The notes under the pieces: model-generated | What the model was told of the DNA's origin: nothing | Seen by the model: the letters and a program-made list of their open reading frames with translations, nothing else | Database searches by the model: none | Position numbers and translations under genes: made by a program | Shown here: in pieces, positions 45,101 to 58,742 of the stretch | Layout: every line of letters starts with the position of its first letter | Numbering within the stretch: position 1 is the first letter of the stretch | DNA from: Bdellovibrionales bacterium | Lineage (GTDB): Bacteria > Bdellovibrionota > Bdellovibrionia > Bdellovibrionales > UBA1609 | Assembly: GCA_023301025.1 (NCBI GenBank) | Contig: JALZUR010000005.1 | Coordinates: 10,771 to 74,770, forward strand | Reading direction: 5' to 3' | Length of the DNA stretch: 64,000 nt

Positions 45101-45407
45101 TGATTTACCTGTAGTTGGAGTTAACACTTACATTGACCCAAAAACTTTAGAAGCTGGTTTTGTTCCTGAAAGTATTGAAATGGCCAGAGCTACAACAAAA
45201 GAAAAAGATCTTCAGCTTAATAGAACTATAGACTATAAGAAAACGAACGCTGAGAGTTCAGAAAAAATGCTTAAAAAACTTAAAGAGGACTGTTTAAGTG
45301 GTGAAAATATTTTTAAAAGTCTTATGGAAGTCTCAAAATTCTGCTCTCTTCACCAGATTACTCAAACACTTTACGAAGTCGGCGGGGAGTACAGAAGAAA
45401 TCTGTAA
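42144..45407 (+). CDS. icmF: Fused isobutyryl-CoA mutase / MeaB-like GTPase (B12-dependent)
   Basis: N-terminal B12 domain [12 protein letters not shown]; GTPase [17 protein letters not shown]; mutase [36 protein letters not shown]; 1087 aa. Confidence 0.95.
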
Positions 45408-46713
45408 AGTAATCTTCTGTTCTTTACTTTTTTTTGGGTGTTCTAAAAAAGCTGAAATTAAGAATAATAAAAGCATCAAGCCACGAATAGAACACCTAAA
45501 GATCGCTCTTCAGACAAAACTTATGTCACTAGATCCTTTGAGTGTTAACTCTTTGGGTGAAAATCTTATTTTAGATTTAATCTCTCCAAAAATTTTTTAT
45601 AAAGAAAAAGAGACTTTTAAAAGTAAGCTTGGTGAGTTCAGGTTTGATGGTAAATCTTTAAAATTTAAAAGCTTAAAGTCTCAAGAGGTTTTTGGTCAGT
45701 CCTTTTTAAAGGCCTCTCAATCGAGTTTATGGAAGGTTTTGTTTAAAGACTTTATATTCACACCAAAAAAAGGTGTGGTTTGTGTTAAGGAACAAGGCTG
45801 TTTGTTAGGATTTGTAAACATGCTTGGAGTTTTAAGATCCAAAGAACTTTCAACTTATGTAGTGAAAGATTTTAAAAAAGGTCATTATGTTGTTTTAAAA
45901 TCTAATTTAGTAAACAATCATACTCTTCTTAAAAAGATAAAATTTATATCCATACAGAACGAAAGTGATGGATTTAAATTATTGTTAACAAAAAAAATAG
46001 ATCTTTTTTTTCCAGAATCTTTTAGTTTATCATTAGATCCTAAATTTGATTATGTTTTTAAAAAAGGTCAGAGTAAGCGTATTAGTTTTTACTTTAAAAA
46101 CAATTCTTTACCAGATAAAACATTTGTTAAACTTATTTGTGAGTCCGTTGAAGAGATCAAAAAGAGCTTTTCCATTTGGGATTTGACCGAAAACATGTGT
46201 AAAAACAGTAACATAATATTTAAGAATAAAAAAAATATTAAATTAAAAGAAAAAATAACAATTGTTGGAAACTCTAAAAACACAATTAAAATTGTTGATC
46301 TTCTATATAGTAAGAAACCAGATTATATTAACTTAGATTACAGAAATTTAAAATCTTATAAACTTACTAAAGTTCTAAAAAGTGGTGATTTTGATTTTTA
46401 TATTGATGAAGAGCTTTATGACAAAAGCTATCCATTTTTAAAAGAAGCCTATCATTCAGATGGATTGTTTAACACTTTAAAATATAAAAACAAAAATATG
46501 GACTCAATCTTTGATAATTTAGAATCAAAGACTGATTTTAAAGACTTTTTTGAAAGCCAAACACAACTAAATAAAATTTTAAAAAAAGAAGAGTCTATTA
46601 TTTTGAGACTAAATAGAAAAATACCTTTTTCTATTTTTCTAAAAAGTAGTCCAAAAAAAGAGACCTGCAATTTATTTTTGAAAAATTTAAAATTATCCTC
46701 AAAAGCTTTTTAA
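45298..46713 (+). CDS. Divergent ABC-type substrate-binding lipoprotein (family 5-like); start uncertain
   Basis: LFFGC lipobox-like motif, [34 protein letters not shown] pattern; overlaps the icmF end by 110 bp. Confidence 0.55.
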
Positions 46714-48271
46714 AAGCCCGTTGCATGTCATTGAAGTTTTAGAAAAAGACTCTTCTGGTTTAAATTGAGCTTCTTGAACTTGAGCTTCAATAGCAGCACT
46801 CATGTTGGTCATCAGATAGTTTGTTACTTCTTTAGTTAAAAGATTGGCAAATTGCTCTGGTTCAACAAAGTTTTCTTTAGCTAGTGTAATAAGGCCCTTT
46901 AGAGCGTAAGGTAAAAATCCATCTCGCAGTTCAATGCCTTCACGAAGAACTATCTTAATAGATTCTATTAACCTCTCAGCTGGAGTCCGGTTAGTCTGAA
47001 TCACTCGCTCAAGAGATTCAAAAATCTCAAGACTCTTGATCGCCTCTGGTCGGTTCGTTGTTACAGACTCTAGTGCCATAACTACTTGTTTGGTGTTTTT
47101 AGCTCCAATTCCGTAAAGCATTTGCGCTAAGCCTTTGACTTCGTCCTCGGTGAGTTCTGTTACTTGACCAAAATCTATTGGGTCATTGGGCACTTTTTCA
47201 AGAGTTGTGAAAAGAAAATGAAACATGTGTAGCTTTTCTAAATTTTCTTTACTCACTGTTTTTAAATTATCTACAGGGTTCGAATCTGTATCAGTGTTCA
47301 AGGTTACAATTTCATTTCGTAATTTTTCTTGACGTTTCTCTAGACCAATTTCTGTAATTTCTGTCTCTACTGTTTTAAGTAGAGCTTCAAGCTGAATAAC
47401 AGCTTTTTTGTAAGACAGGCTCTTAACACCAAGTTCAGAAATTTTAAAGGCTACGCGATTTTCATTTTTGTCAGGTGATTCAGATTTATAGGGGCTACTT
47501 TTATAGCTTTCAAGTTCTGAGATTAAAGCCTTTCTTGAAATATCATCTTCAGGAGGAGTTTTTACCTCGCCATTGAAAAAACTTGAAAAGGTTGTTGCAA
47601 TACGCAATACCGATTCACGAAGTAGATCATTGGGGTGAGTAGAAAAAGTCTGTTGTTTTATGTTCTCGCTAAAAGTTTTAACATCTTCATTATTATCAGG
47701 TTTTTTCGCATTTAAAGCCCAATTAAGGCCGCGAAACACTGCTTCTGAAGGAATGCCTGACTCTAAAGAAAGCTCAACAGCTCTAGTGTCAGTGAGAAGC
47801 TCAATTTTTTGACTCGAAAGGAATCTGTAAGTATTTTTTGCTAATGAATTGGTTTTGAGGCACTGTTATCAATGGGGTGAGCCATTTCATGTGCTATGAT
47901 TCCTCTAAGTCTTAAAGTTGACAACTCAAACTGTCCTACATCATCAGAGGCGAGCGCTTCAGTAAAAAGAGATTCAATGAGCCCTCTTGTGACATAGAGA
48001 TTGACGTGCAGTTCTCCTTTCTTCACTTGGCTCTTTACATAAGCGTTTATACCCTCAAAATTTGTAATTTCAGTAACAGTTTGAACAGCAGTAACTGGTT
48101 TAGTTCGAAGAGAGTTGAGTCTTTTAAGCAAAGCGGGCTCAAAATTCTCGGCTATTTGCTGCACCATTGATTCAAACACAGGGGATTCTAAGTTGCTCGC
48201 CTTGCAGGGCAGGGGGAAAGTAAGCACCAAAACATTAAATAATACAAATTTTTACCAGGAAAAGACTTCAT
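46699..48271 (-). pseudogene. M48-like zinc metallopeptidase gene interrupted by two -1 frameshifts
   Basis: SD GAGGT plus ATG at 48271 (MKSFPGK...). The next frame carries IIAHEMAH (track ORF 47841-48230); a third frame carries SQKIELLTDTRAVELSLESGIP and continues into track ORF 46699-47739. Confidence 0.7.
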
Positions 48272-49942: not shown

Positions 49943-50095
49943 GCTTTAAGTAAAATTAAGATTAGAATTATTTATGTTAATAAAACAAAGTTCAGGATTA
50001 GGTCAAATTTAGAACAAGTGCTTTGACGGTCCTTGTTTTATTGAATTACATTTTTTGTATCATGTTTATATGCTAGATCAAAGGACTGACCATAT

Positions 50096-51547
50096 ATGAA
50101 ATTTTTACTCATCTTGATGCTCATTTTTATTGGTTCTAACTCCTATTCAGAAGAGGCGCCGAACCTCACTAATGTTCCTGTAAGTAATGTTCTAGATCAG
50201 TCACTTTTAAAAACAGATAAAAAATTTAGTTTAGAGCTTTTTAGCTTTGAAGATTTTATTTACTCGGGCTCACGAAAAATGGAGCTTGGAGATCAAGTCA
50301 GATTAACAACACGTTTTAGATACCAAATTACTGAGAATGCATGGGCCTCTCTGGGTTTTCGAACTGATCCTAACCAAGATCGCTTTGATAATAAAACTTC
50401 GGATTTTGAACTCCGCACAGGTTACATTTATGAAAACTTTGTAGCTCAAGCTGATTTTTCATTTAACACAAATGATCCTGATGGTGGTATTTCAATTGGT
50501 TTTGATTTAGATTCAGAAAATACGTTTTTACGTTATAAAATAAAAGATAAGTTTCAACTGACATTTTTCCCATTTAACTTTGACGGTGAAGTAGGGGTTG
50601 ATTTTGATACTGGTGATATAACTAGGATTTATTTTATTGAGGGGAGTCCTACAAACATTCCAATAGATATTGCGACAGCCACAGTGCCTATCAGGGTTGC
50701 GCAAAAAACTCTACCGGGTTTGGTTTTAAGATACACAAATGCTGAAGACAGTCTAAACATGGAAAGCTTTTATGTCGGTATTTCTGGGGCTAGTTACGAA
50801 CGCCCTAACGATCCAAACTTTAATATCATAGACGATAGCACTAGTGTGTCTTGGTCTAGAAAAACTATGCTTGGATACAAAGCGGGACTCTTTTTTAGAC
50901 GACCAAAAACATTTACAAGTCTTCAGTACATTGGACAAACTAAGGATGATGAAACGGGGGCTTTAATCAACTCTGCTCTTTCTTTATATTCTTTATCAAG
51001 AGTTTTTGGTTTGATGACTGAATTTGAAATGACGGCAACAAAAGGTGGAGAGCTCCCGTGGAGAGTTTCAAGAGATGGTGGGTCTTTTGGAAGTTTAGAT
51101 TTAGCAACAACCACCTTAGCTTCTAATAGAGTTTATGCGGATAGAACAGGAGAGCTGCAAAACTGGACAGGAAATTGGGGTGTAGGTACGAGTCTAAAAG
51201 TTGGAACTACAAGCAACAGCTACAGACCTTATCTGTCATACAGATATTTAACAGATGATTTTGTATATAGCTCAAGAATCTCAGCTCACAACCTAAGGAC
51301 AAATGACCTTTCAAACTCTCATGGAGGACTTCATGGTTTAGGCGGTGGAGCGTTTGTATACAAAGGCAATTTTATTATCAACCCTAGATTTGAATATCTA
51401 TCTGCAAAGAATAATGTTTTTGGCGACAGTGACGACTTAAGAGAAACTCTTCAAGACAGAAACCTTATTGATTCAGATTTTAGTTTTTATATAAATGTCT
51501 CTTACTTTTTCAATTCAAGAACTGGTCCAAGAACATTTAGATTGTAG
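50096..51547 (+). CDS. Predicted outer-membrane beta-barrel protein, unknown family
   Basis: Signal peptide; many amphipathic aromatic-rich strands; terminal strand FSFYINVSYFF. Confidence 0.65.
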   Translation: MKFLLILMLIFIGSNSYSEEAPNLTNVPVSNVLDQSLLKTDKKFSLELFSFEDFIYSGSRKMELGDQVRLTTRFRYQITENAWASLGFRTDPNQDRFDNKTSDFELRTGYIYENFVAQADFSFNTNDPDGGISIGFDLDSENTFLRYKIKDKFQLTFFPFNFDGEVGVDFDTGDITRIYFIEGSPTNIPIDIATATVPIRVAQKTLPGLVLRYTNAEDSLNMESFYVGISGASYERPNDPNFNIIDDSTSVSWSRKTMLGYKAGLFFRRPKTFTSLQYIGQTKDDETGALINSALSLYSLSRVFGLMTEFEMTATKGGELPWRVSRDGGSFGSLDLATTTLASNRVYADRTGELQNWTGNWGVGTSLKVGTTSNSYRPYLSYRYLTDDFVYSSRISAHNLRTNDLSNSHGGLHGLGGGAFVYKGNFIINPRFEYLSAKNNVFGDSDDLRETLQDRNLIDSDFSFYINVSYFFNSRTGPRTFRL

Positions 51548-51561
51548 GGGGATTAAAAAAA

Positions 51562-53562
51562 ATGATTCGACAGATCTTAAACACTTTTATAAAACTTAAA
51601 GTTTTAGTATTTCTATGTTTTTTTCTGTCATCTTGTGAATCAGACAATAAAAAAAATTTGGATTCTCTTCCGTCAACATTTTCAGTTGATGGGGTCGATG
51701 AAACAAGTAAACTTCTAAAAAAACTAAACGAAGACTTTGCTTTAGGACTAGTTTTTAGTAGTCAGCCTGATGATACTAAAAGTCTTATTGAAAACTCTTT
51801 AAAAAGATCAATTGCTGGAATAAATATTTTAAAAACAAATAACGGCGATATTAAACGCGTTGAGCTTGCTTATTATGAGCTAGGATCCTCATTGTATCTT
51901 ATGGAGCAAGCAAGGCTTATTGAAATAAATGAAGAGCTTACCTTTGATGTTTTCAATCAAGTAAGTATCATTGTCTCAAAACTAGCAAGAGCCTTGAATA
52001 AAGATGAAACCTCAAGAGTTATTTACAAGTACAATTTTGGAGATGGTATTGACCCCGATTTTTTAGCCTTAAAAGGTAAAGATCAGTTTGGTGATATAAA
52101 GTGGGCTACTAATTTTCAAATAGATTTGCCTAAGGCAAAGATACAAGGCCGTCAGGGGCATGCCTGGATGGTTTCTAAAGCTTTTGATCTAAGTGAAGTG
52201 TCAGAGCCTAGTTTTACTTATCATTCAGCTCTGTTGGTCTCTAGTAGGGATGCTGAGCTTAGTTTGTATGAAGTGGTTAAAAGGGTTTTTAAAACTTATG
52301 TTCTGCTTGATCTAAAGCCAGGTGAGTCTGTTGAAGATCTTCCAAAAGAGCGAAAGATATTGATAGAGTATTCAGCTGATGAGGTGCCAAAAGCTAGGGA
52401 TTTTCATGATACGTGGTTACCTGAGAGGTCTTTAAAAGCCTTTAAAGGTCATAAGGTTTCTATAGGCTTTTTGTTTGATACCAGAGACATTGAATTTACA
52501 CAGTACTATGTTTGGGATATTTATGATTTTGAAATCAGAGGCTCTGGAAAGCTTAATATAGATCCCTACTTTTTAAGTCCATTTTTATCTGAAGATCTTG
52601 GTGGCTATCAAACTTTATCACAAGTTTTTTCAGGACCAGAGTGGAAGAGCGGTAGTGACGGAGTATATATAAACTCAAGCACTGAACGCACAGACAGTAT
52701 ACTTATGTCACCTTTAATAGTTACTGAGGATCTTCCTTTTAACAAAGACAAAAAGCTTAGGCTTGAAGTGATTGAAGAGGTGAATGCTCTTAGTAAAGAT
52801 CAAGCAGAGGTTTTAATCTCAACAGACTATACGCCAGGTAAAGCATTTGATGAAAAAAATCAAACATGGATATCTTTAGAGCGTTTTAAGCGTGGATCAA
52901 AACAAGTTTTTGATTTAACAGATTTTCAAGATACAGATTTTGTTTTAGCTTTTAGGTTTAGATCAGAGATTTTTGGAGAAAGTTGGGACATAAACGACAT
53001 CTTTATTGAGGCTGTTGGTCAAAGACTTTTTAGTCTGCCATTTTTGTCAAAAGATCAAAATGATATGGCTAACATAACTACAAGCTTTAATTTTGCAGAA
53101 GACTCTACAAAAAGTTATTTAGTAGAACAGGATGATGATTCACCTACTTGGACTAAAAAACCAGGTGGGATCAATATCTCTGCTCACCGAGGTAACAACG
53201 CACCCGCTTTTAGTGGTGGATCAAGACTCTACTTTTCTTCTTTGGAATTAAAAGAAAACCAACGAAACTTTTTACGGTTAAAGCACACCGTTGGATTTAT
53301 AAGAGGAAAGGGACCTTTAAAAGTTCAAGTTAGAGTACACTGTAAAGAAAGTGATGAAGTTTGTAACCCTTGGGAGGATGTTGGCTTTTCTGATGCTGTG
53401 CTAAATTCAAGAATTGATGAGATGACGTTTTCTAATTGGCAATTAATAGATAAAAAGTTTTATGGACAAGAGATTGATCTTTCTTTTTACTACAAAGCCT
53501 TTGATGGTAACACTCCTAACTGGACCATTGAGCGTTTTGAGGTGTCTTCTGTTAAAGATTAA
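51562..53562 (+). CDS. Lipoprotein with repeated jelly-roll-like (DUF5017/cleaved-adhesin-like) domains
   Basis: Lipobox FLSSC; three repeats of an (L/M)xSxxxxL...L-x-F-type core and W-x-I-x-x-(F/I) ends (WDIYDF, WDINDI, WTIERF). Confidence 0.6.
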   Translation: MIRQILNTFIKLKVLVFLCFFLSSCESDNKKNLDSLPSTFSVDGVDETSKLLKKLNEDFALGLVFSSQPDDTKSLIENSLKRSIAGINILKTNNGDIKRVELAYYELGSSLYLMEQARLIEINEELTFDVFNQVSIIVSKLARALNKDETSRVIYKYNFGDGIDPDFLALKGKDQFGDIKWATNFQIDLPKAKIQGRQGHAWMVSKAFDLSEVSEPSFTYHSALLVSSRDAELSLYEVVKRVFKTYVLLDLKPGESVEDLPKERKILIEYSADEVPKARDFHDTWLPERSLKAFKGHKVSIGFLFDTRDIEFTQYYVWDIYDFEIRGSGKLNIDPYFLSPFLSEDLGGYQTLSQVFSGPEWKSGSDGVYINSSTERTDSILMSPLIVTEDLPFNKDKKLRLEVIEEVNALSKDQAEVLISTDYTPGKAFDEKNQTWISLERFKRGSKQVFDLTDFQDTDFVLAFRFRSEIFGESWDINDIFIEAVGQRLFSLPFLSKDQNDMANITTSFNFAEDSTKSYLVEQDDDSPTWTKKPGGINISAHRGNNAPAFSGGSRLYFSSLELKENQRNFLRLKHTVGFIRGKGPLKVQVRVHCKESDEVCNPWEDVGFSDAVLNSRIDEMTFSNWQLIDKKFYGQEIDLSFYYKAFDGNTPNWTIERFEVSSVKD

Positions 53563-56113
53563 CTTTAAAAACGCTTTACTTCTTATACCTGTGTTGTTTT
53601 TTCTATTCTTAGGATGTGAATCTACTAATGAAGAGACTGAAAATAATGTTACACTCTTGAGTGCAAGTTCTACTCTTAAAACTTCTACTGAAGCCGGTAA
53701 TTTTGTTACAACAGCACTTAGAAGATCTTTAGAAGTTGATTTTGCATTTTTACCTTCAAGGTATTTTTTAGATGAACGTACGGTTCTTGATATTCATAAA
53801 GATATGACAGACTTTGAAATAGAAGAGGTTTTAAATAACTTTAAAATAGGTCCGAAGGATCAGATTTTAGTTGGCTCTATGAAAGGTCGTCACATTAAAG
53901 AGTTTGTAATTCAACGCTCTCAAGAAGCTTACAATTTAGATTTAGAGACTGCTGGTTTATGGTACAGGCTTACATTTAAGGGAGGGTTTTTATCTGCTTC
54001 TGACTTTAAAGTGGATGGTCGTTATGATGTTGATGATGATAGAACCTACCGAATTGCCATTAGTGATGACTTTTTCTTTGGGTCGGCTTTTCCAGGTTAT
54101 AGATATAGAAATGGTTTTAACTTTAGATTCAGAAGAGAGCGCTATCAAAGATCAATTCATGAATCTGTAAAAAGCTATTTGAAAGATCAAAAATTTGCTT
54201 ATCCTAATTGGTCTGCCATAAGAGCAGAGGTTAAAAACTTAACCTTTAAAGATCTAGGTTTAACTGAAATACATGACATTCAAGGTCCAGCGCACACAAG
54301 CCCTATTCTTTCACATACTGTTACAACTCGTGGTGTAGTTACAGCTGTTGGCTCTGACAATTGGTACCCTTTTGACCTAGACATTTATATTCAAAGTCAA
54401 AATCCTGATTCTGATCCAAGGACGTCTGAAGGGATTCACATTACATCTCTTAATAACTCTGTTGGTGTTGAAATTGGTCAACTTATTGAAGTTGAAGGCT
54501 TAGTAATGGAAGAGGCTAGATCTAATGGTATGGGTGAGACAACTTTAAGAGTTGTAAAAGACATTAAAGTTTTAAAAGAGTCAGTTGATCTTCCTGAGCC
54601 TATGAGTTTAGCAAGAGTTCCAATTGATAAAATTTCTAGCCACTCCGGAGGCCCTCTTATGTCTAAGGCTTTTTTAGATTTAGGAGACGGGATTGATTTT
54701 TGGGAAAGTTTAGAAGGTATGCGAGTTGTAACTAGAGATTTAGTTGTTTCCGGTTTTAGAGGAGGAGGGGAGGACCTAGTTGAAATTTCTGATAGGTTTT
54801 ATCTAAATCTTTATGTTTTTTCAAAAGAGTCTTACAGTTCAGAGCTTATTACTAAAAGCGGTGGCCTAAGGGTTGATTATGATTCTGAAGATTACAACCC
54901 GGAGCTTTTTGTTCTTACAACAAATCATCTGTCCAAAGGCATACAGGTTCAAAAGTCTAATGGTGATTACTATTACTATAATATTGGTGATGAGTTTAAG
55001 GGGGATATAGTTGGAGTGCTTACATACCCTAAAAATATTTTTGGAGGCGGGGAGTATGCGCTGGTTACCCCAGTAGCGCAAGAGTCTCTAGAGTATAAAA
55101 ATATAGATTCAAAAGGTTTTGTGCCTTTAAATCAAAGACCAAAATCTAAGTTTGATGTCACTCTAAGTCCAAATGAAATTACTGTTGCAACTTTTAACTT
55201 AGAAAATTTGGGTGGAAACAGACAGGACCGTATTGATGTTTTTTCAAATATAGTAAAAACAAACTTAAATTGCCCCGACGTCTTAAACTTAGTTGAGATT
55301 CAAGATAACAATGGTGTTTCTTTTAGAGGTGGGGCTGATGCTAAGATGACTCTAAAAAAGATTAAGTTGGCTGTAGGACAACAGTGTGAAGATTCAAACT
55401 ATGAGTTTATTAATATAGATCCTTTTGAGCTTTCTGAAGGCGGGCAGCCCGGTGGAAATATAAGAACATCGGTGCTTTACAACAAAGATAAGCTTGATTT
55501 TAACTACACCAGTGAAAATAATAATGAGTCTTACGGAGGGCATAGCTTGCCTACAAAAGGTGGCGATTTAAGTGTTAACCCTGGTCGAGTTTTTCCTTTA
55601 GATGTAGCTTTTAGACGTTCTAGGCGAAGCCCTGTGATGCAGTTTAGCCTTAAAGACTCACCTAAAAAAAGACTCTACCTTATTGGTGCTCACTTAAACT
55701 CTAAGATTGGAGACATTGATTTTTGGGGAAACAGACAACCTCCAGTACAGCTGTCTGATGACCGTAGATCTGCAATGGCAAAAAAACTCAATGAGTTTGT
55801 TAGATTGATTGAAAAAGAAAATTCTAAAGCACATATAATTGTTCTAGGGGATTTCAATTCTCTTGCTGAAGAAAATTCGATGAAAGTGCTGACAGAAAAC
55901 GAAACAAGGCTTAAAAATACAATCTTTACAAAATCTAAAGATGCACAGTACACAACAAATCATAATGGTAACTCTCAAGCCTTAGATTATATTTTTGTAA
56001 ACAAAAATATTTATAAAAATCCATGTACTGAATCAGAATATCTAAATTTGAATTCTGATTTTATGGGTCGTTTTTCTGATCACGATCCTGTTGTTTTAAA
56101 AATGTGCATGTGA
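53462..56113 (+). CDS. Lipoprotein nuclease: 5'-nucleotidase C-terminal-like domain, OB fold and endonuclease/exonuclease/phosphatase domain (start probably the TTG at 53528 or 53537)
   Basis: FLGC lipobox; EAGNFVTTALR...AGLWY...YRIAISDDF; IHDIQG..SP, RGVVTA, TSEGI; WESLEGMRV, TFNLENL, VEIQD, HLNSK, GDFN, LDYI, SDHDP. Confidence 0.85.
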   Translation: MDKRLIFLFTTKPLMVTLLTGPLSVLRCLLLKINFKNALLLIPVLFFLFLGCESTNEETENNVTLLSASSTLKTSTEAGNFVTTALRRSLEVDFAFLPSRYFLDERTVLDIHKDMTDFEIEEVLNNFKIGPKDQILVGSMKGRHIKEFVIQRSQEAYNLDLETAGLWYRLTFKGGFLSASDFKVDGRYDVDDDRTYRIAISDDFFFGSAFPGYRYRNGFNFRFRRERYQRSIHESVKSYLKDQKFAYPNWSAIRAEVKNLTFKDLGLTEIHDIQGPAHTSPILSHTVTTRGVVTAVGSDNWYPFDLDIYIQSQNPDSDPRTSEGIHITSLNNSVGVEIGQLIEVEGLVMEEARSNGMGETTLRVVKDIKVLKESVDLPEPMSLARVPIDKISSHSGGPLMSKAFLDLGDGIDFWESLEGMRVVTRDLVVSGFRGGGEDLVEISDRFYLNLYVFSKESYSSELITKSGGLRVDYDSEDYNPELFVLTTNHLSKGIQVQKSNGDYYYYNIGDEFKGDIVGVLTYPKNIFGGGEYALVTPVAQESLEYKNIDSKGFVPLNQRPKSKFDVTLSPNEITVATFNLENLGGNRQDRIDVFSNIVKTNLNCPDVLNLVEIQDNNGVSFRGGADAKMTLKKIKLAVGQQCEDSNYEFINIDPFELSEGGQPGGNIRTSVLYNKDKLDFNYTSENNNESYGGHSLPTKGGDLSVNPGRVFPLDVAFRRSRRSPVMQFSLKDSPKKRLYLIGAHLNSKIGDIDFWGNRQPPVQLSDDRRSAMAKKLNEFVRLIEKENSKAHIIVLGDFNSLAEENSMKVLTENETRLKNTIFTKSKDAQYTTNHNGNSQALDYIFVNKNIYKNPCTESEYLNLNSDFMGRFSDHDPVVLKMCM

Positions 56114-56231: not shown

Positions 56232-56726
56232 ATGAGTGTGTTTATTAGAGTGATTTTTATTGGTTTTTTTATGATGTTTGTAAGTGCGTGCTCTGATGAT
56301 GACAAAGGCATAACAAAACCTGAAAACGGAACTTACCTTAGTCAGTGTGTAAGCCCTGATGGAGTATCAAGTGCAAATGTTGAATATATCTTTGATGATG
56401 AAAGTGTATCAATTCGTGATTATATGTATGACAATCCTGATTGTACTGGTAACGGTGGCGGTGATCTAGCTGTTACAAGTTTGTTTGAGCATTCTGATGT
56501 AGATTTAGGTTCTGGTGTTTCATATGTAAGGGTAGAGTCAGAAGGTGGAGAAATCAGTCAGGTCGTTTTCTTTGTAAGTGATTCAAAAGTTTATATTCCA
56601 AACTTTCCAGAAACAGAGCCACAAGGTGATGAAACACCTAATGAGCTTGAGGCTTTATATAGCTTTTTTATTGAAGACCCAACGAATGAAGAAAACTATG
56701 GACTTTTACTGACTAGAAGTGAGTAA
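56232..56726 (+). CDS. Small acidic orphan lipoprotein
   Basis: Lipobox VSAC, SD AGGAG, GTYLSQC...DCTG motif. Confidence 0.75.
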   Translation: MSVFIRVIFIGFFMMFVSACSDDDKGITKPENGTYLSQCVSPDGVSSANVEYIFDDESVSIRDYMYDNPDCTGNGGGDLAVTSLFEHSDVDLGSGVSYVRVESEGGEISQVVFFVSDSKVYIPNFPETEPQGDETPNELEALYSFFIEDPTNEENYGLLLTRSE

Positions 56727-56917: not shown

Positions 56918-57436
56918 ATGAAAAAAATTATACTATCATTAATTGTTTTAGGTTTCACATCTGCAGCGTCTGCAACATTAGAAATTCACCTCAGTTCTGG
57001 TGCAGCTTTTCCAGGTGTCGCAACGTCAACTGGTGCAGGATTTTTTATTCCTGATGAAGGTGATACAGTTTGGGGATTAAGTACTGAAGTCTACAAATCA
57101 ATTAATGAAAACATTCAGGCTGGTGGTGTTTTAAATTTCATTAATTTTGGTGATGAAACTTTTTATACACTTGGTGCAAGAGTTAGATACAACTTAGATT
57201 CAGATCTTAGAGATTCTATGTGGCTTGGCGGAGGTCTTTCATATTCAAACGTTTCTGGTGATGGTGACAACTCAAGAATTGCTTTAAATCTTCAATTTGG
57301 TAAAAGATACGCGCTATCTGATAGCTTAACATACACTCCAAATGTTAGTTTTGATCTTAACATTGGTGGTGATATCGATGATGGTCACCTTATAGGTGTT
57401 AACCTAATTTCATTTTCTGGTTTCATGAATATGTAA
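56918..57436 (+). CDS. Small outer-membrane beta-barrel protein
   Basis: Signal peptide, about 8 amphipathic strands (LGARVRYN, FGKRY, YTPNV), SD AAGGAG. Confidence 0.75.
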   Translation: MKKIILSLIVLGFTSAASATLEIHLSSGAAFPGVATSTGAGFFIPDEGDTVWGLSTEVYKSINENIQAGGVLNFINFGDETFYTLGARVRYNLDSDLRDSMWLGGGLSYSNVSGDGDNSRIALNLQFGKRYALSDSLTYTPNVSFDLNIGGDIDDGHLIGVNLISFSGFMNM

Positions 57437-57527: not shown

Positions 57528-58742
57528 TTAGAAAGAATCATTTGTTTTATCTGTAAGATTTCTCTTTGCAGAAGTATGTTGTTCTTCTTTAAACTTTTCA
57601 ACTTCAGACTCATCCAGTATTTTCTCATCAAGTTCTTTGATGGCATTTATAATTGGGGCAACCAATCCTTGATAATTAACAGATCTGTATTCATTTGCAT
57701 CACCTGGGTTATGAATTTTAATCAAGAGTGGAAACTGCAGTTCAACTTCTTGAGCTATAACACCTATAGCTCTCTGGCCAGCTCGACCTCTAGATTTTTC
57801 ACTCCAGACATACTCATAGCCGTTAAGTTTTTTTAACTTTTCTAATGAGTTTTTAATCAAAACTTTTTCGTCTTTAAACTTGATATCCGAAGCTGTGGTA
57901 AAGTTATTTGCTAACACATCTCCATCAACCTCTAATTTAGTAGAAGGGTTTAGAACACCGATACCAACATCACCATCACTTTTAATAACCATTCTAGGTA
58001 CAGCATCGTTTGAACCTGCAGGAGAAGTTCCAAAAACTAATCGTGTCGGCATATTGTCGTTGCCAATCGGTCCATCGACTGAAGCTCTAAAGTAGGCATG
58101 TCTAGTAGAGTCATTTACCCCCCCCCCTAAATCATATGGAGTAACTCCATCACTTCCTATAAAGCTCACTTGTCCAAGCAGGTCATCTTCTTGAACAGCA
58201 GCTCCATTTCTACTTCTTCTAAACTCAAGATCGGCTTTACAAGTCGCACATGTATCGTTGTTGCTTTCTAAAATTATATCTTTATTGTCTCCTAAAACAT
58301 GAAATATCTTTTCAGGGTTGGTAGTTCCAATTCCAACGTAGCCACTGTCATCAACATAAATTCCAGCTGAGCCGTCTTCGCCAACCAGTTGATAAGCACC
58401 TAAGTTTAAATTTTGAGTGGCAGTGTGGTTACCAAGATTATCACTAAGAACTGAGGCCCCTGCGGATTGATCTATACATGTCCATGTGCTTCCATTCCAT
58501 TGGAGCATTTGATCTAAAGAACAGCCTGAGCCATTAAAAGGTGCAGGAAGCTGGTTTATATTTTCTATATTAACTCCAGTTTGTAAAACACCTGGTAAAA
58601 TATAAGCTGCAGGCACACCCGCTGGTTGAAATTCAACATCATTGGTACTGCTTACATTCTCTAAACAGGCTGTGCCGCTTAATGCGATAGCTAGCAACAT
58701 TATATACTTACTTATTCTTAATTGTTTTAATGCTTGACCCAT
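57528..58742 (-). CDS. Fibre-like surface protein with a C-terminal peptidase S74 chaperone domain
   Basis: Lipobox-like SGTAC; GYVGIGTTNP and GDVGIGVLNPSTKLEVDG fibre repeats; SDIKFKD...LKKLNGYEYVW...IGVIAQEV...VNYQGLVAPIINAIKEL. Confidence 0.85.
   Translation of the reverse strand: MGQALKQLRISKYIMLLAIALSGTACLENVSSTNDVEFQPAGVPAAYILPGVLQTGVNIENINQLPAPFNGSGCSLDQMLQWNGSTWTCIDQSAGASVLSDNLGNHTATQNLNLGAYQLVGEDGSAGIYVDDSGYVGIGTTNPEKIFHVLGDNKDIILESNNDTCATCKADLEFRRSRNGAAVQEDDLLGQVSFIGSDGVTPYDLGGGVNDSTRHAYFRASVDGPIGNDNMPTRLVFGTSPAGSNDAVPRMVIKSDGDVGIGVLNPSTKLEVDGDVLANNFTTASDIKFKDEKVLIKNSLEKLKKLNGYEYVWSEKSRGRAGQRAIGVIAQEVELQFPLLIKIHNPGDANEYRSVNYQGLVAPIINAIKELDEKILDESEVEKFKEEQHTSAKRNLTDKTNDSF
58118..58127 (-). 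repeat. Homopolymer G10 (C10 on + strand) inside the fibre gene
   Basis: tcattta-CCCCCCCCCC-taa; encodes L-G-G-G-V in frame. Confidence 0.9.

What the first reader, a model, noticed from the sequence alone, without database searches (positions are those of the whole stretch)
50096..56113. Candidate surface nucleic-acid capture and degradation system: OM barrel, binding lipoprotein and nuclease
Seen: three co-oriented exported genes with a 14-bp gap and then an overlap, encoding an unknown beta-barrel, a lipoprotein with three jelly-roll-like repeats and a lipoprotein EEP nuclease; a small lipoprotein follows at 56232. Established: EEP/OB (ExeM/NucH-like) nucleases degrade extracellular DNA, and Bacteroidota Sus-like loci pair transporter, binding lipoprotein and hydrolase. 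Inference: an analogous but TonB-receptor-free module that binds DNA/RNA, cuts it and imports the products, useful for prey nucleic acids or biofilm eDNA.
Basis: partly seen in the sequence, partly recalled or inferred. Interest (0 to 1): 0.8.

Follow-up and report, generated by a model that had tools for sequence, protein, structure and literature searches.

The report
Barrel, lipoprotein and nuclease outer-membrane trio
Some predatory bacteria (phylum Bdellovibrionota) carry a fixed three-gene set, never found in part, that encodes a new outer-membrane barrel, a repeat-domain lipoprotein and a lipid-anchored DNA/RNA-cutting enzyme; it is probably a cell-surface machine for harvesting nucleic acids, built without the TonB-powered transporter used by the only comparable known system.

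Summary
Genes 50096-51547, 51562-53562 and about 53537-56113 are co-oriented and tightly packed.

- **Gene 1** folds confidently (pLDDT 85, pTM 0.86) as a large porin-like beta-barrel of about 18 strands. It has no Pfam or NCBIfam match.
- **Gene 2** is a lipoprotein with a helical N-terminal part and three homologous jelly-roll repeats of the choice-of-anchor-J type.
- **Gene 3** is a lipoprotein nuclease. It has a 5'-nucleotidase-C-like domain, then OB and EEP domains homologous to S. pyogenes SpnA (E 1e-52) and to ExeM/NucH. All catalytic residues are invariant.

The order barrel, lipoprotein, nuclease holds in 51 of 51 assessable related loci. All are Bdellovibrionota, and flanking genes differ beyond close relatives. 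In 401 genomes of the phylum, the same 32 carry both barrel and nuclease. None carries only one.

The small lipoprotein at 56232 is not conserved with the set.

Surface exposure, DNA binding by gene 2 and import through the barrel remain untested. Gene 2 is acidic and its fold is a generic ligand-binding one.

The closest known system is the Bacteroidota Ddb DNA-utilization and Riemerella transformation locus, which uses a TonB-dependent transporter. I rate this a new variant of a known kind.

The parts
50023..50052 (+). Sigma-70-like promoter candidate (TTGACG-18-TACATT), 44 bp upstream of g1
   Evidence: Consensus scan. This is a pattern match only, in the 153-bp gap between the divergent YceD-like gene and g1.
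50096..51547 (+). g1: exported outer-membrane beta-barrel of 483 aa, about 18 strands, from a new family with no Pfam or NCBIfam model
   Evidence: SPI leader. No family hit. AF2 pLDDT 84.9, pTM 0.86. Foldseek returns only OM barrels, with the best TM-scores for the barrels known to have 18 strands (MOMP, AlgE; strand numbers from my knowledge), 0.38-0.42. Only 73 representatives among 1.84 billion proteins. Distant short relatives match BBP2/OmpL-like porin PF07642. The long loops L1, L2, L3, L6 and L8 are more conserved than the strands.
51562..53562 (+). g2: lipoprotein of 666 aa (Cys25) with an N-terminal helical part and three choice-of-anchor-J jelly-roll repeats
   Evidence: Lipobox LSS|C. 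AF2 pLDDT 82.8. NF038128 matches 9 of 15 family members, best E 1e-13, and DUF5017 matches 2 of 15. Foldseek hits are reelin, EphA2 LBD, MAM, CBM22 and SGBP-B.
51694..51993 (+). g2 helical region (residues 45-144), kept in family members with different repeat numbers
   Evidence: DSSP of the AF2 model. Also present in the 1-repeat (L001) and 2-repeat (L002) homologues.
52000..53559 (+). g2 repeats D1 (52000-52557), D2 (52558-53043) and D3 (53044-53559)
   Evidence: hhalign D1-D2 98.4%, D2-D3 94.6%, D1-D3 84.6%. Family length classes of about 310, 500, 680 and 884 aa correspond to 1 to 4 repeats.
53537..56113 (+). g3: lipoprotein nuclease. The frame is open from 53462; the likely start is TTG 53537; the lipidated Cys codon is at 53615.
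   Evidence: leader. Pfam 5_nucleotid_C plus Exo_endo_phos, and NCBIfam ExeM_NucH_DNase at 115 bits. PDB 9sf9/9sf8 (SpnA) E 1e-52 over residues 244-856.
53669..54067 (+). g3 N-terminal 5'-nucleotidase-C-like domain, with no metallophosphatase domain
   Evidence: PF02872 matches 24 of 24 family members, best E 6e-10. No Metallophos hit. No PDB sequence match even with a profile.
54266..55171 (+). g3 OB-fold and linker region homologous to SpnA
   Evidence: Residue-by-residue alignment to 9sf9. The OB domains of SpnA are described in PMC13601614.
55172..56110 (+). g3 EEP catalytic domain
   Evidence: N554, E587, H719, D772, N774, D817, D848 and H849 (numbered from the TTG start) are invariant in 44 of 44 homologues.

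Best explanation
The three genes encode one outer-membrane nuclease machine specific to Bdellovibrionota. After Sec export and lipidation, the two lipoproteins associate with the barrel. These are g2 (helical part plus jelly-roll repeats) and g3 (5'-nucleotidase-C-like, OB and EEP domains). The barrel's unusually conserved long loops would form the docking surface. The barrel is the obligatory membrane partner that lets the lipoproteins work at the cell surface. The nuclease then cuts extracellular or prey DNA/RNA close to the membrane. g2 acts as a capture or scaffold arm. The small products (nucleotides, short oligonucleotides) enter passively through the barrel, with no TonB energy.

Shown here: gene structure and export signals; the folds; an intact EEP active site; strict synteny; perfect co-occurrence; inheritance as a unit.

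Inferred: physical complex, surface exposure, nucleic acid as g2's ligand, and import through the barrel.
For: - Same order and strand, with tight or overlapping junctions, in 51/51 assessable loci from 54 Bdellovibrionota genomes. Flanking genes differ in the neighbourhoods examined beyond close relatives.
- Barrel and nuclease are present in exactly the same 32 of 401 phylum genomes, each single-copy, with none carrying only one. The 41 nearest relatives show the same pattern, apart from one genome where the contig ends just after the barrel gene, so its nuclease could not be assessed.
- The pairwise identity matrices of the three proteins correlate at r 0.84-0.92.
- In all 54 g2 homologues and all 50 g3 homologues whose N-terminus is present, a hydrophobic leader ends in Cys. 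My strict lipobox pattern matched 38/54 and 41/51; I read the remainder by eye as lipobox variants.
- Both lipoproteins use domain types otherwise found on extracellular or surface-anchored proteins. Choice-of-anchor J is one. SpnA, ExeM and NucH nucleases are the others (PMC13601614, PMC6085458).
- The EEP catalytic residues are invariant.
- The barrel's long loops are more conserved (3.1-3.4 bits) than its strands (2.5-2.7) or its short turns (0.6-1.8). This is the reverse of what is usual for general porins.
- The barrel's distant relatives are stand-alone porin-like proteins (BBP2).
- Precedents: Bacteroidales ddb loci and the Riemerella transformation locus pair nucleases with an OM barrel and a DUF5689/choice-of-anchor-J partner (PMC12478041, PMC8459023). 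Bdellovibrio takes up intact nucleoside monophosphates (Ruby 1985 and Rittenberg 1975, as listed in PMC7529429).
Against: - There is no direct evidence for a complex, for surface exposure or for transport.
- g2 is acidic (pI 4.9, net charge about -24; family median pI 5.1) and its fold is a generic ligand binder. It could bind glycans or proteins instead.
- Which side of the membrane the lipoproteins face is unknown for this phylum.
- The strand count and loop orientation come from the DSSP string and the usual OMP rule, not from coordinates.
- The genome keeps purM, and so probably de novo purine synthesis, and it has an Endonuclease-I gene. The module is therefore accessory, and it is present in only 8% of phylum genomes.
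Confidence: 0.55

Rival explanations
1. Display device only. The barrel is a dedicated translocon or anchor that puts the two lipoproteins on the cell surface, functionally like Slam/T11SS or a SusC-less platform. It carries no nutrient; products enter through general porins.
For: Absolute co-occurrence and fixed gene order suggest an assembly dependence rather than a mere metabolic link. The conserved loops would suit docking. Both lipoproteins have extracellular-type domains.
Against: There is no similarity to Slam/DUF560 and no periplasmic TPR domain: no Pfam hit, and the barrel starts at about residue 44. Distant relatives are porin-like, stand-alone barrels. An 18-strand barrel with no predicted plug domain is large enough to conduct solutes.
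Confidence: 0.22
2. Periplasmic processing. The lipoproteins face the periplasm from the inner leaflet of the outer membrane. The barrel admits DNA fragments or oligonucleotides, which the nuclease then degrades inside. ExeM was found cell-associated rather than released.
For: Inner-leaflet placement is the default fate of Lol-sorted lipoproteins (my knowledge). ExeM in Shewanella is not found in supernatants (PMC6085458). The 5'-nucleotidase-C-like domain derives from enzymes such as UshA, which is periplasmic (my knowledge).
Against: By its definition (my knowledge of the NCBIfam category, not tested here), choice-of-anchor-J is a domain of surface or secreted proteins; the g2 family matches it. 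SpnA-type nucleases act outside the cell (PMC13601614). A passive 18-strand barrel is unlikely to admit polymeric DNA. The conserved long loops lie on the side expected to be extracellular.
Confidence: 0.13
3. Not a nucleic-acid system. g2's CBM/MAM-like repeats bind prey envelope glycans or proteins. The EEP enzyme hydrolyses another phosphodiester, such as a phospholipid head group or a teichoic- or LPS-linked phosphate, during attack.
For: g2's structural matches are glycan and protein binders. g2 is acidic. The EEP superfamily includes sphingomyelinases and phosphatases (my knowledge).
Against: g3 aligns over 610 residues, OB domains included, with a proven DNase, SpnA (E 1e-52). It also matches the ExeM/NucH model and carries a nucleotide-binding-type domain in all members.
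Confidence: 0.07

Closest known systems
Bacteroidales DNA-utilization loci ddbABCDEF and the related Riemerella anatipestifer transformation genes RA0C_RS04915/04920 (PMC12478041, PMC8459023)
   Same: One locus encodes lipoprotein (SPII) nucleases, an outer-membrane barrel and an accessory surface protein. The Riemerella partner protein is annotated as choice-of-anchor J with DUF5017, the same domain type found in the g2 family. The proposed logic is also the same: bind, cut, import.
   Different: In those systems the barrel is a TonB-dependent transporter (DdbC) and the partner's DNA-binding part is DUF5689. Here the barrel is a 483-aa, roughly 18-strand, plug-less porin-like protein of a new family, and g2 has no DUF5689. 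The nuclease here is of the SpnA/ExeM type with a 5'-nucleotidase-C-like head. The host phylum is Bdellovibrionota, not Bacteroidota.
ExeM (Shewanella), Xds (Vibrio), NucH (Aeromonas) extracellular nucleases, NCBIfam NF033681 (PMC6085458)
   Same: OB-fold plus a large EEP domain, with the metal- and phosphate-binding residues conserved. These are cell-associated nucleases of Gram-negative bacteria.
   Different: g3 scores 115 bits against a 300-bit cut-off. It has no lamin-tail domain and no GlyGly-CTERM/rhombosortase anchor. Instead it has an N-terminal lipid anchor and a 5'-nucleotidase-C-like domain. No dedicated barrel or partner lipoprotein is described for ExeM in PMC6085458.
Streptococcus pyogenes nuclease A, SpnA (PDB 9sf8/9sf9, PMC13601614)
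   Same: It is the best solved-structure relative (E 1e-52 across OB and EEP, residues 244-856). It is a surface-tethered DNase.
   Different: SpnA is, from my knowledge, a cell-wall-anchored (LPXTG) protein of a Gram-positive pathogen, with no membrane partners. g3 is lipid-anchored in a diderm and always encoded with a barrel and a second lipoprotein.
Substrate-specific outer-membrane channels (Tsx/OmpK nucleoside channel, OprP/OprO phosphate porins) and 18-strand barrels (AlgE, Campylobacter MOMP)
   Same: Passive barrel, with possible selectivity for nucleotide or phosphate solutes. The best Foldseek TM-scores are to MOMP and AlgE, both 18-strand barrels (strand numbers from my knowledge).
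   Different: No sequence-family match. Tsx has 12 strands. TM-scores are only 0.3-0.42, which indicates a generic barrel resemblance. None of these is described as co-encoded with two lipoproteins (my knowledge).

Membership tests
ExeM/NucH family extracellular endonuclease (NF033681) | EEP catalytic domain with conserved metal- and phosphate-binding residues | tested here: met
   Pfam PF03372 at 30.7 bits, above the cut-off. N554, E587, H719, D772, N774, D817, D848 and H849 are invariant in 44/44 homologues.
ExeM/NucH family extracellular endonuclease (NF033681) | Score above the curated NCBIfam cut-off (300 bits) | tested here: not met
   115.2 bits, E 3.7e-33. g3 is a relative, not a curated member.
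ExeM/NucH family extracellular endonuclease (NF033681) | N-terminal lamin-tail domain and C-terminal GlyGly-CTERM anchor, as in ExeM and Xds | tested here: not met
   No LTD hit. The protein ends with the EEP domain. It has an N-terminal lipobox and a 5_nucleotid_C domain instead. The ExeM architecture is from PMC6085458.
SpnA-type OB+EEP nucleases | Contiguous OB-fold(s) followed by an EEP domain, homologous in sequence | tested here: met
   phmmer E 1.3e-52; query residues 244-856 align with chain residues 2-561 of 9sf9.
SpnA-type OB+EEP nucleases | LPXTG cell-wall anchor | tested here: not met
   There is no C-terminal extension after SDHDP…MCM. The protein is a lipoprotein of a diderm.
Bacteroidota Ddb / PUL-like DNA-utilization locus | TonB-dependent transporter (plug plus 22-strand barrel) as the locus anchor (DdbC) | tested here: not met
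   g1 is 483 aa, has no Plug or TonB_dep_Rec hit, and is modelled with about 18 strands and no N-terminal domain.
Bacteroidota Ddb / PUL-like DNA-utilization locus | DUF5689 (PF18942) substrate-binding partner (DdbD) | tested here: not met
   No PF18942 hit in any of 15 g2-family members at E<=1.
Bacteroidota Ddb / PUL-like DNA-utilization locus | Lipoprotein nuclease(s) and an accessory SPII protein in the same operon | tested here: met
   Both g2 and g3 are lipoproteins and g3 is a nuclease. This is a functional parallel only.
Choice-of-anchor J domain proteins (NF038128) / DUF5017 | Match to the domain model | tested here: inconclusive
   The window's g2 scores only E 0.014 (15.6 bits against a cut-off of 30). 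However, 9 of 15 family members match (best E 1e-13) and 2 of 15 match DUF5017 (8e-7). The family belongs; this copy is divergent.
BBP2 / OmpL-like porins (PF07642) | Match to the Pfam model | tested here: not met
   Neither g1 nor any of the 68 A1 members hits BBP2. Only distant 380-410-aa relatives do: P0143 at 30.8 bits, above the cut-off, and P0144 at 19.4 bits, below it.
Slam / type 11 secretion (DUF560) | DUF560 14-strand barrel with a periplasmic TPR domain | tested here: not met
   No Pfam hit. The barrel begins about 25 residues after the signal peptide. The model has about 18 strands.
Tsx nucleoside-specific channel | Tsx family sequence and 12-strand barrel | tested here: not met
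   No Pfam hit. The barrel is much larger.

The most novel reading that the evidence does not exclude
A TonB-independent, three-part outer-membrane machine unique to predatory Bdellovibrionota. A new 18-strand barrel both displays two lipoproteins and serves as the selective entry port for the nucleotides they release. This would give the first molecular candidate for the outer-membrane route of the intact-nucleotide uptake described for Bdellovibrio in the 1970s and 1980s. It would also show that barrel-lipoprotein 'capture, cut, import' systems evolved independently of SusCD-type transporters.
Probability: 0.27. Interest if true: 0.78.

Novelty: new variant of a known kind. Interest (0 to 1): 0.6.

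Why it matters
How predatory bacteria move prey-derived nucleotides across their own outer membrane is unknown, and their studied nucleases are soluble secreted enzymes. This module is a compact, genetically isolated candidate made of three genes that are always found together. It can be tested directly by deletion, surface labelling, nuclease assays and channel recordings.

It also defines a barrel family with no model in Pfam or NCBIfam, and a new architecture for ExeM/SpnA-type nucleases (lipid anchor plus 5'-nucleotidase-C-like head). If the complex exists, it extends the 'surface lipoprotein plus barrel' design for polymer harvesting beyond TonB-dependent SusCD and DdbCD systems, and into a second phylum.

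Tried and rejected
- **Profile search for more g2 relatives:** it found nothing beyond the nine. Distant g2 homologues had to be taken from syntenic loci instead.
- **PDB sequence searches with the g3 N-terminal domain:** neither the single sequence nor a profile gave a significant hit. The 5'-nucleotidase-C assignment rests on Pfam only.
- **Pho-box idea:** a TGTCA-N6-TGTCA direct repeat lies upstream of the barrel gene in L020, L021 and L024, and a degenerate copy (GTTCAGGATTAGGTCA) lies at 49990-50005. The degenerate pattern occurs in the window at chance frequency, 4 found against 4.2 expected. I dropped it as evidence and keep it only as a lead.
- **Genomic context of distant short barrel relatives:** none has a nuclease neighbour, so they do not inform the function.
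- **Membership of g4 (56232) and g5 (56918) in the module:** rejected, with no homologue in any of 54 loci.
- **TLC nucleotide-transporter search in the genome:** uninformative, because the control genomes also gave nothing.
- **Slam, Tsx and TonB-dependent-receptor identities for the barrel:** rejected (see the membership tests).


Full report
**What is in the sequence.** The window is AT-rich (about 34% GC). On the + strand lie ORFs at 50096-51547 (483 aa), 51562-53562 (666 aa) and 53462-56113 (883 aa as the longest ORF). They are followed by 56232-56726 and 56918-57436.
- g1 has a cleavable SPI-type leader.
- g2 has the lipobox LSS|C25.
- In g3 the lipobox Cys codon is at 53615. A start at TTG 53537 gives a normal 26-residue leader and a 26-bp overlap with g2. 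The ATG at 53462 would give an implausibly long leader.
- The g1-g2 gap is 14 bp.

No terminator-like site lies at any junction of the trio or between g3 and g4. A promoter-like site lies 44 bp upstream of g1.

**Gene 1 is a barrel of a new family.**
- It matches nothing in Pfam or NCBIfam, and neither do the 68 aligned relatives, apart from scattered weak hits.
- With a 68-sequence alignment, AlphaFold2 gives pLDDT 84.9 and pTM 0.86 with an all-beta pattern.
- Foldseek against the PDB returns only outer-membrane barrels at E about 1e-8. TM-scores are low (0.27-0.42) and best for the 18-strand barrels MOMP and AlgE. The match is therefore a generic barrel resemblance.
- From the DSSP string I read 18 strands joined by 2-4-residue turns on one side and long loops on the other. 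Both termini lie on the short-turn side, which is the usual OMP topology. This is an inference, because I had no coordinates.
- Five of the long loops (57-67, 90-102, 125-143, 282-290, 386-411) are more conserved (3.1-3.4 bits) than the strands (2.5-2.7) and far more than the turns (0.6-1.8). General porins show the opposite. This points to a conserved constriction or a conserved docking surface.
- An exhaustive profile search of 1.84 billion representatives finds only 73 proteins. The most distant are 380-420-aa stand-alone barrels, some matching BBP2/OmpL-like porin or DUF481. None has a nuclease neighbour.

**Gene 2 is a modular lipoprotein.**
- AF2 (pLDDT 82.8) gives a helical region (45-144) and three beta-sandwiches.
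- The three sandwiches are homologous to each other (hhalign 98/95/85%).
- Nine of 15 family members match the choice-of-anchor-J model (best E 1e-13) and two match DUF5017. The window's own copy is divergent (E 0.014).
- Structural neighbours are reelin repeats, the EphA2 ligand-binding domain, MAM domains, CBM22 and a Bacteroides surface glycan-binding protein. These are ligand-binding jelly-rolls with no specific link to nucleic acid.
- The protein is acidic (pI 4.9; family median 5.1).
- It evolves about twice as fast as its neighbours (24% mean pairwise identity against 44-45%). It occurs in length classes of about 310, 500, 680 and 884 aa, corresponding to 1 to 4 repeats. The helical part is retained in homologues with one, two and three repeats.

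**Gene 3 is a nuclease.**
- Residues 244-856 align end to end with S. pyogenes nuclease A (PDB 9sf8/9sf9, E 1e-52; identified through PMC13601614).
- It also matches the ExeM/NucH domain model at 115 bits, below the 300-bit cut-off.
- All EEP catalytic positions are invariant in 44 homologues.
- The N-terminal 5'-nucleotidase-C-like domain is present in 24 of 24 members. No metallophosphatase domain accompanies it.
- Unlike ExeM (PMC6085458), it has no lamin-tail domain and no GlyGly-CTERM anchor. The anchor is an N-terminal lipid.

**The three genes form one unit.**
- Homologues of the barrel at 35-40% identity sit in the same barrel, lipoprotein, nuclease arrangement with unrelated flanking genes.
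- A scan of one genome per species found 54 loci, all Bdellovibrionota (Bdellovibrionales, Pseudobdellovibrionaceae, Bacteriovoracaceae, Halobacteriovoraceae, Oligoflexia). One MAG is labelled Sulfitobacter and is probably mis-binned.
- In all 51 loci with enough downstream sequence, the order and strand are identical and the junctions are tight or overlapping.
- In all 54 g2 homologues and all 50 g3 homologues whose N-terminus is present, a hydrophobic leader ends in Cys. A strict lipobox pattern matched 38/54 and 41/51; I read the rest by eye as lipobox variants.
- In 401 genomes sampled across the phylum, 32 have the barrel and 32 have the nuclease. They are the same 32, each with a single copy. 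Among the 41 nearest relatives, the one apparent exception is a contig that ends just after the barrel gene.
- The pairwise identity matrices of the three proteins correlate at r 0.84-0.92.
- g4 and g5 have no homologue in any of these loci and are not part of the unit.

**Mechanism.** The shown facts are an intact surface-type nuclease, a second lipoprotein built from a surface-type domain, and a barrel that never occurs without them. The most economical reading is a tripartite outer-membrane complex. The barrel would be needed for the lipoproteins to function at the surface, and it probably also lets the small products in.

I favour this reading (0.55) over three rivals:
- a display-only barrel (0.22);
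- a periplasmic processing arrangement (0.13);
- a non-nucleic-acid substrate (0.07).

Import is the weakest link. It rests on the porin-like ancestry of the barrel, on the conserved loops, and on analogy. The genome retains purM and an Endonuclease-I gene, so the module is accessory scavenging equipment rather than a lifeline. It is present in only 8% of phylum genomes.

**Comparison with what is known.** The nearest system is the Bacteroidales ddbABCDEF DNA-utilization locus and its Riemerella transformation relative (PMC12478041; PMC8459023). There, nucleases are encoded with a TonB-dependent barrel and a DUF5689 partner, which in Riemerella is also annotated choice-of-anchor J/DUF5017.

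The present module shares the logic and the choice-of-anchor-J domain type. It fails the defining features: it has no TonB-dependent transporter and no DUF5689.

The catalogue of Bdellovibrio bacteriovorus HD100 nucleases lists no exported EEP enzyme (PMC3593177). My literature searches found no description of this trio.

**Verdict.** I rate this a new variant of a known kind, with interest 0.6.

Noticed in passing
window 56232-56726 and 56918-57436: A small lipoprotein (lipobox VSA|C) and a 172-aa protein with weak, sub-threshold matches to outer-membrane beta-barrel models (Autotransporter beta-domain, OMP_b-brl) follow the trio. No terminator-like site lies between g3 and g4. Neither has a homologue next to the trio in any of 54 related loci, so they are local additions.
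   Followed up: partly
window 49990-50005; L020, L021, L024 upstream of the barrel gene: A Pho-box-like direct repeat (TGTCAGGCTTGTGTCA) lies 120-170 bp upstream of the barrel gene in three related genomes. The window has the degenerate form GTTCAGGATTAGGTCA at -106. The degenerate pattern is at chance frequency in the window (4 found, 4.2 expected), so phosphate control is only a lead.
   Followed up: partly
window 51512-51544 (g1 residues 473-483): After the last predicted strand, the barrel has a short tail ending in a conserved RTFR motif (family consensus …RTFRx). By the usual topology it would lie in the periplasm. Its function is unknown.
   Followed up: no
L001 10297-12812; L048 4164-6294; genomes G143, G214, G376, G395 and G413: In several genomes the nuclease gene is called or matched in two pieces. 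In L001 it is 729 + 109 aa. L048 contains masked N. Whether these are real frameshifts, insertions or assembly errors was not examined.
   Followed up: no
L061 9294-11948: One homologue of g2 is 884 aa, apparently with four jelly-roll repeats. Others have one (about 310 aa) or two (about 500 aa). Repeat number changes while the helical N-terminal part stays.
   Followed up: partly
L057 (JBLHVN010000001.1): A 2.0-Mb contig labelled 'Sulfitobacter sp.' carries the complete trio. All 53 other carriers are Bdellovibrionota, so the label is probably a binning or naming error.
   Followed up: no
L072 1237-3951: A distant 382-aa relative of the barrel is encoded next to a two-domain polyphosphate kinase 2 gene. 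This is a single case, possibly hinting at a phosphate-related role for that porin branch.
   Followed up: no
window 57528-58742 (- strand): Convergent with the region is a 404-aa protein carrying a Peptidase_S74 (endosialidase chaperone) domain, which is typical of trimeric fibres. No phage genes were seen among the neighbours I scanned.
   Followed up: no
window 45298-48230: Three ORFs upstream of the mechanosensitive-channel gene (471, 346 and 129 aa) have no Pfam match at E<=0.001.
   Followed up: no
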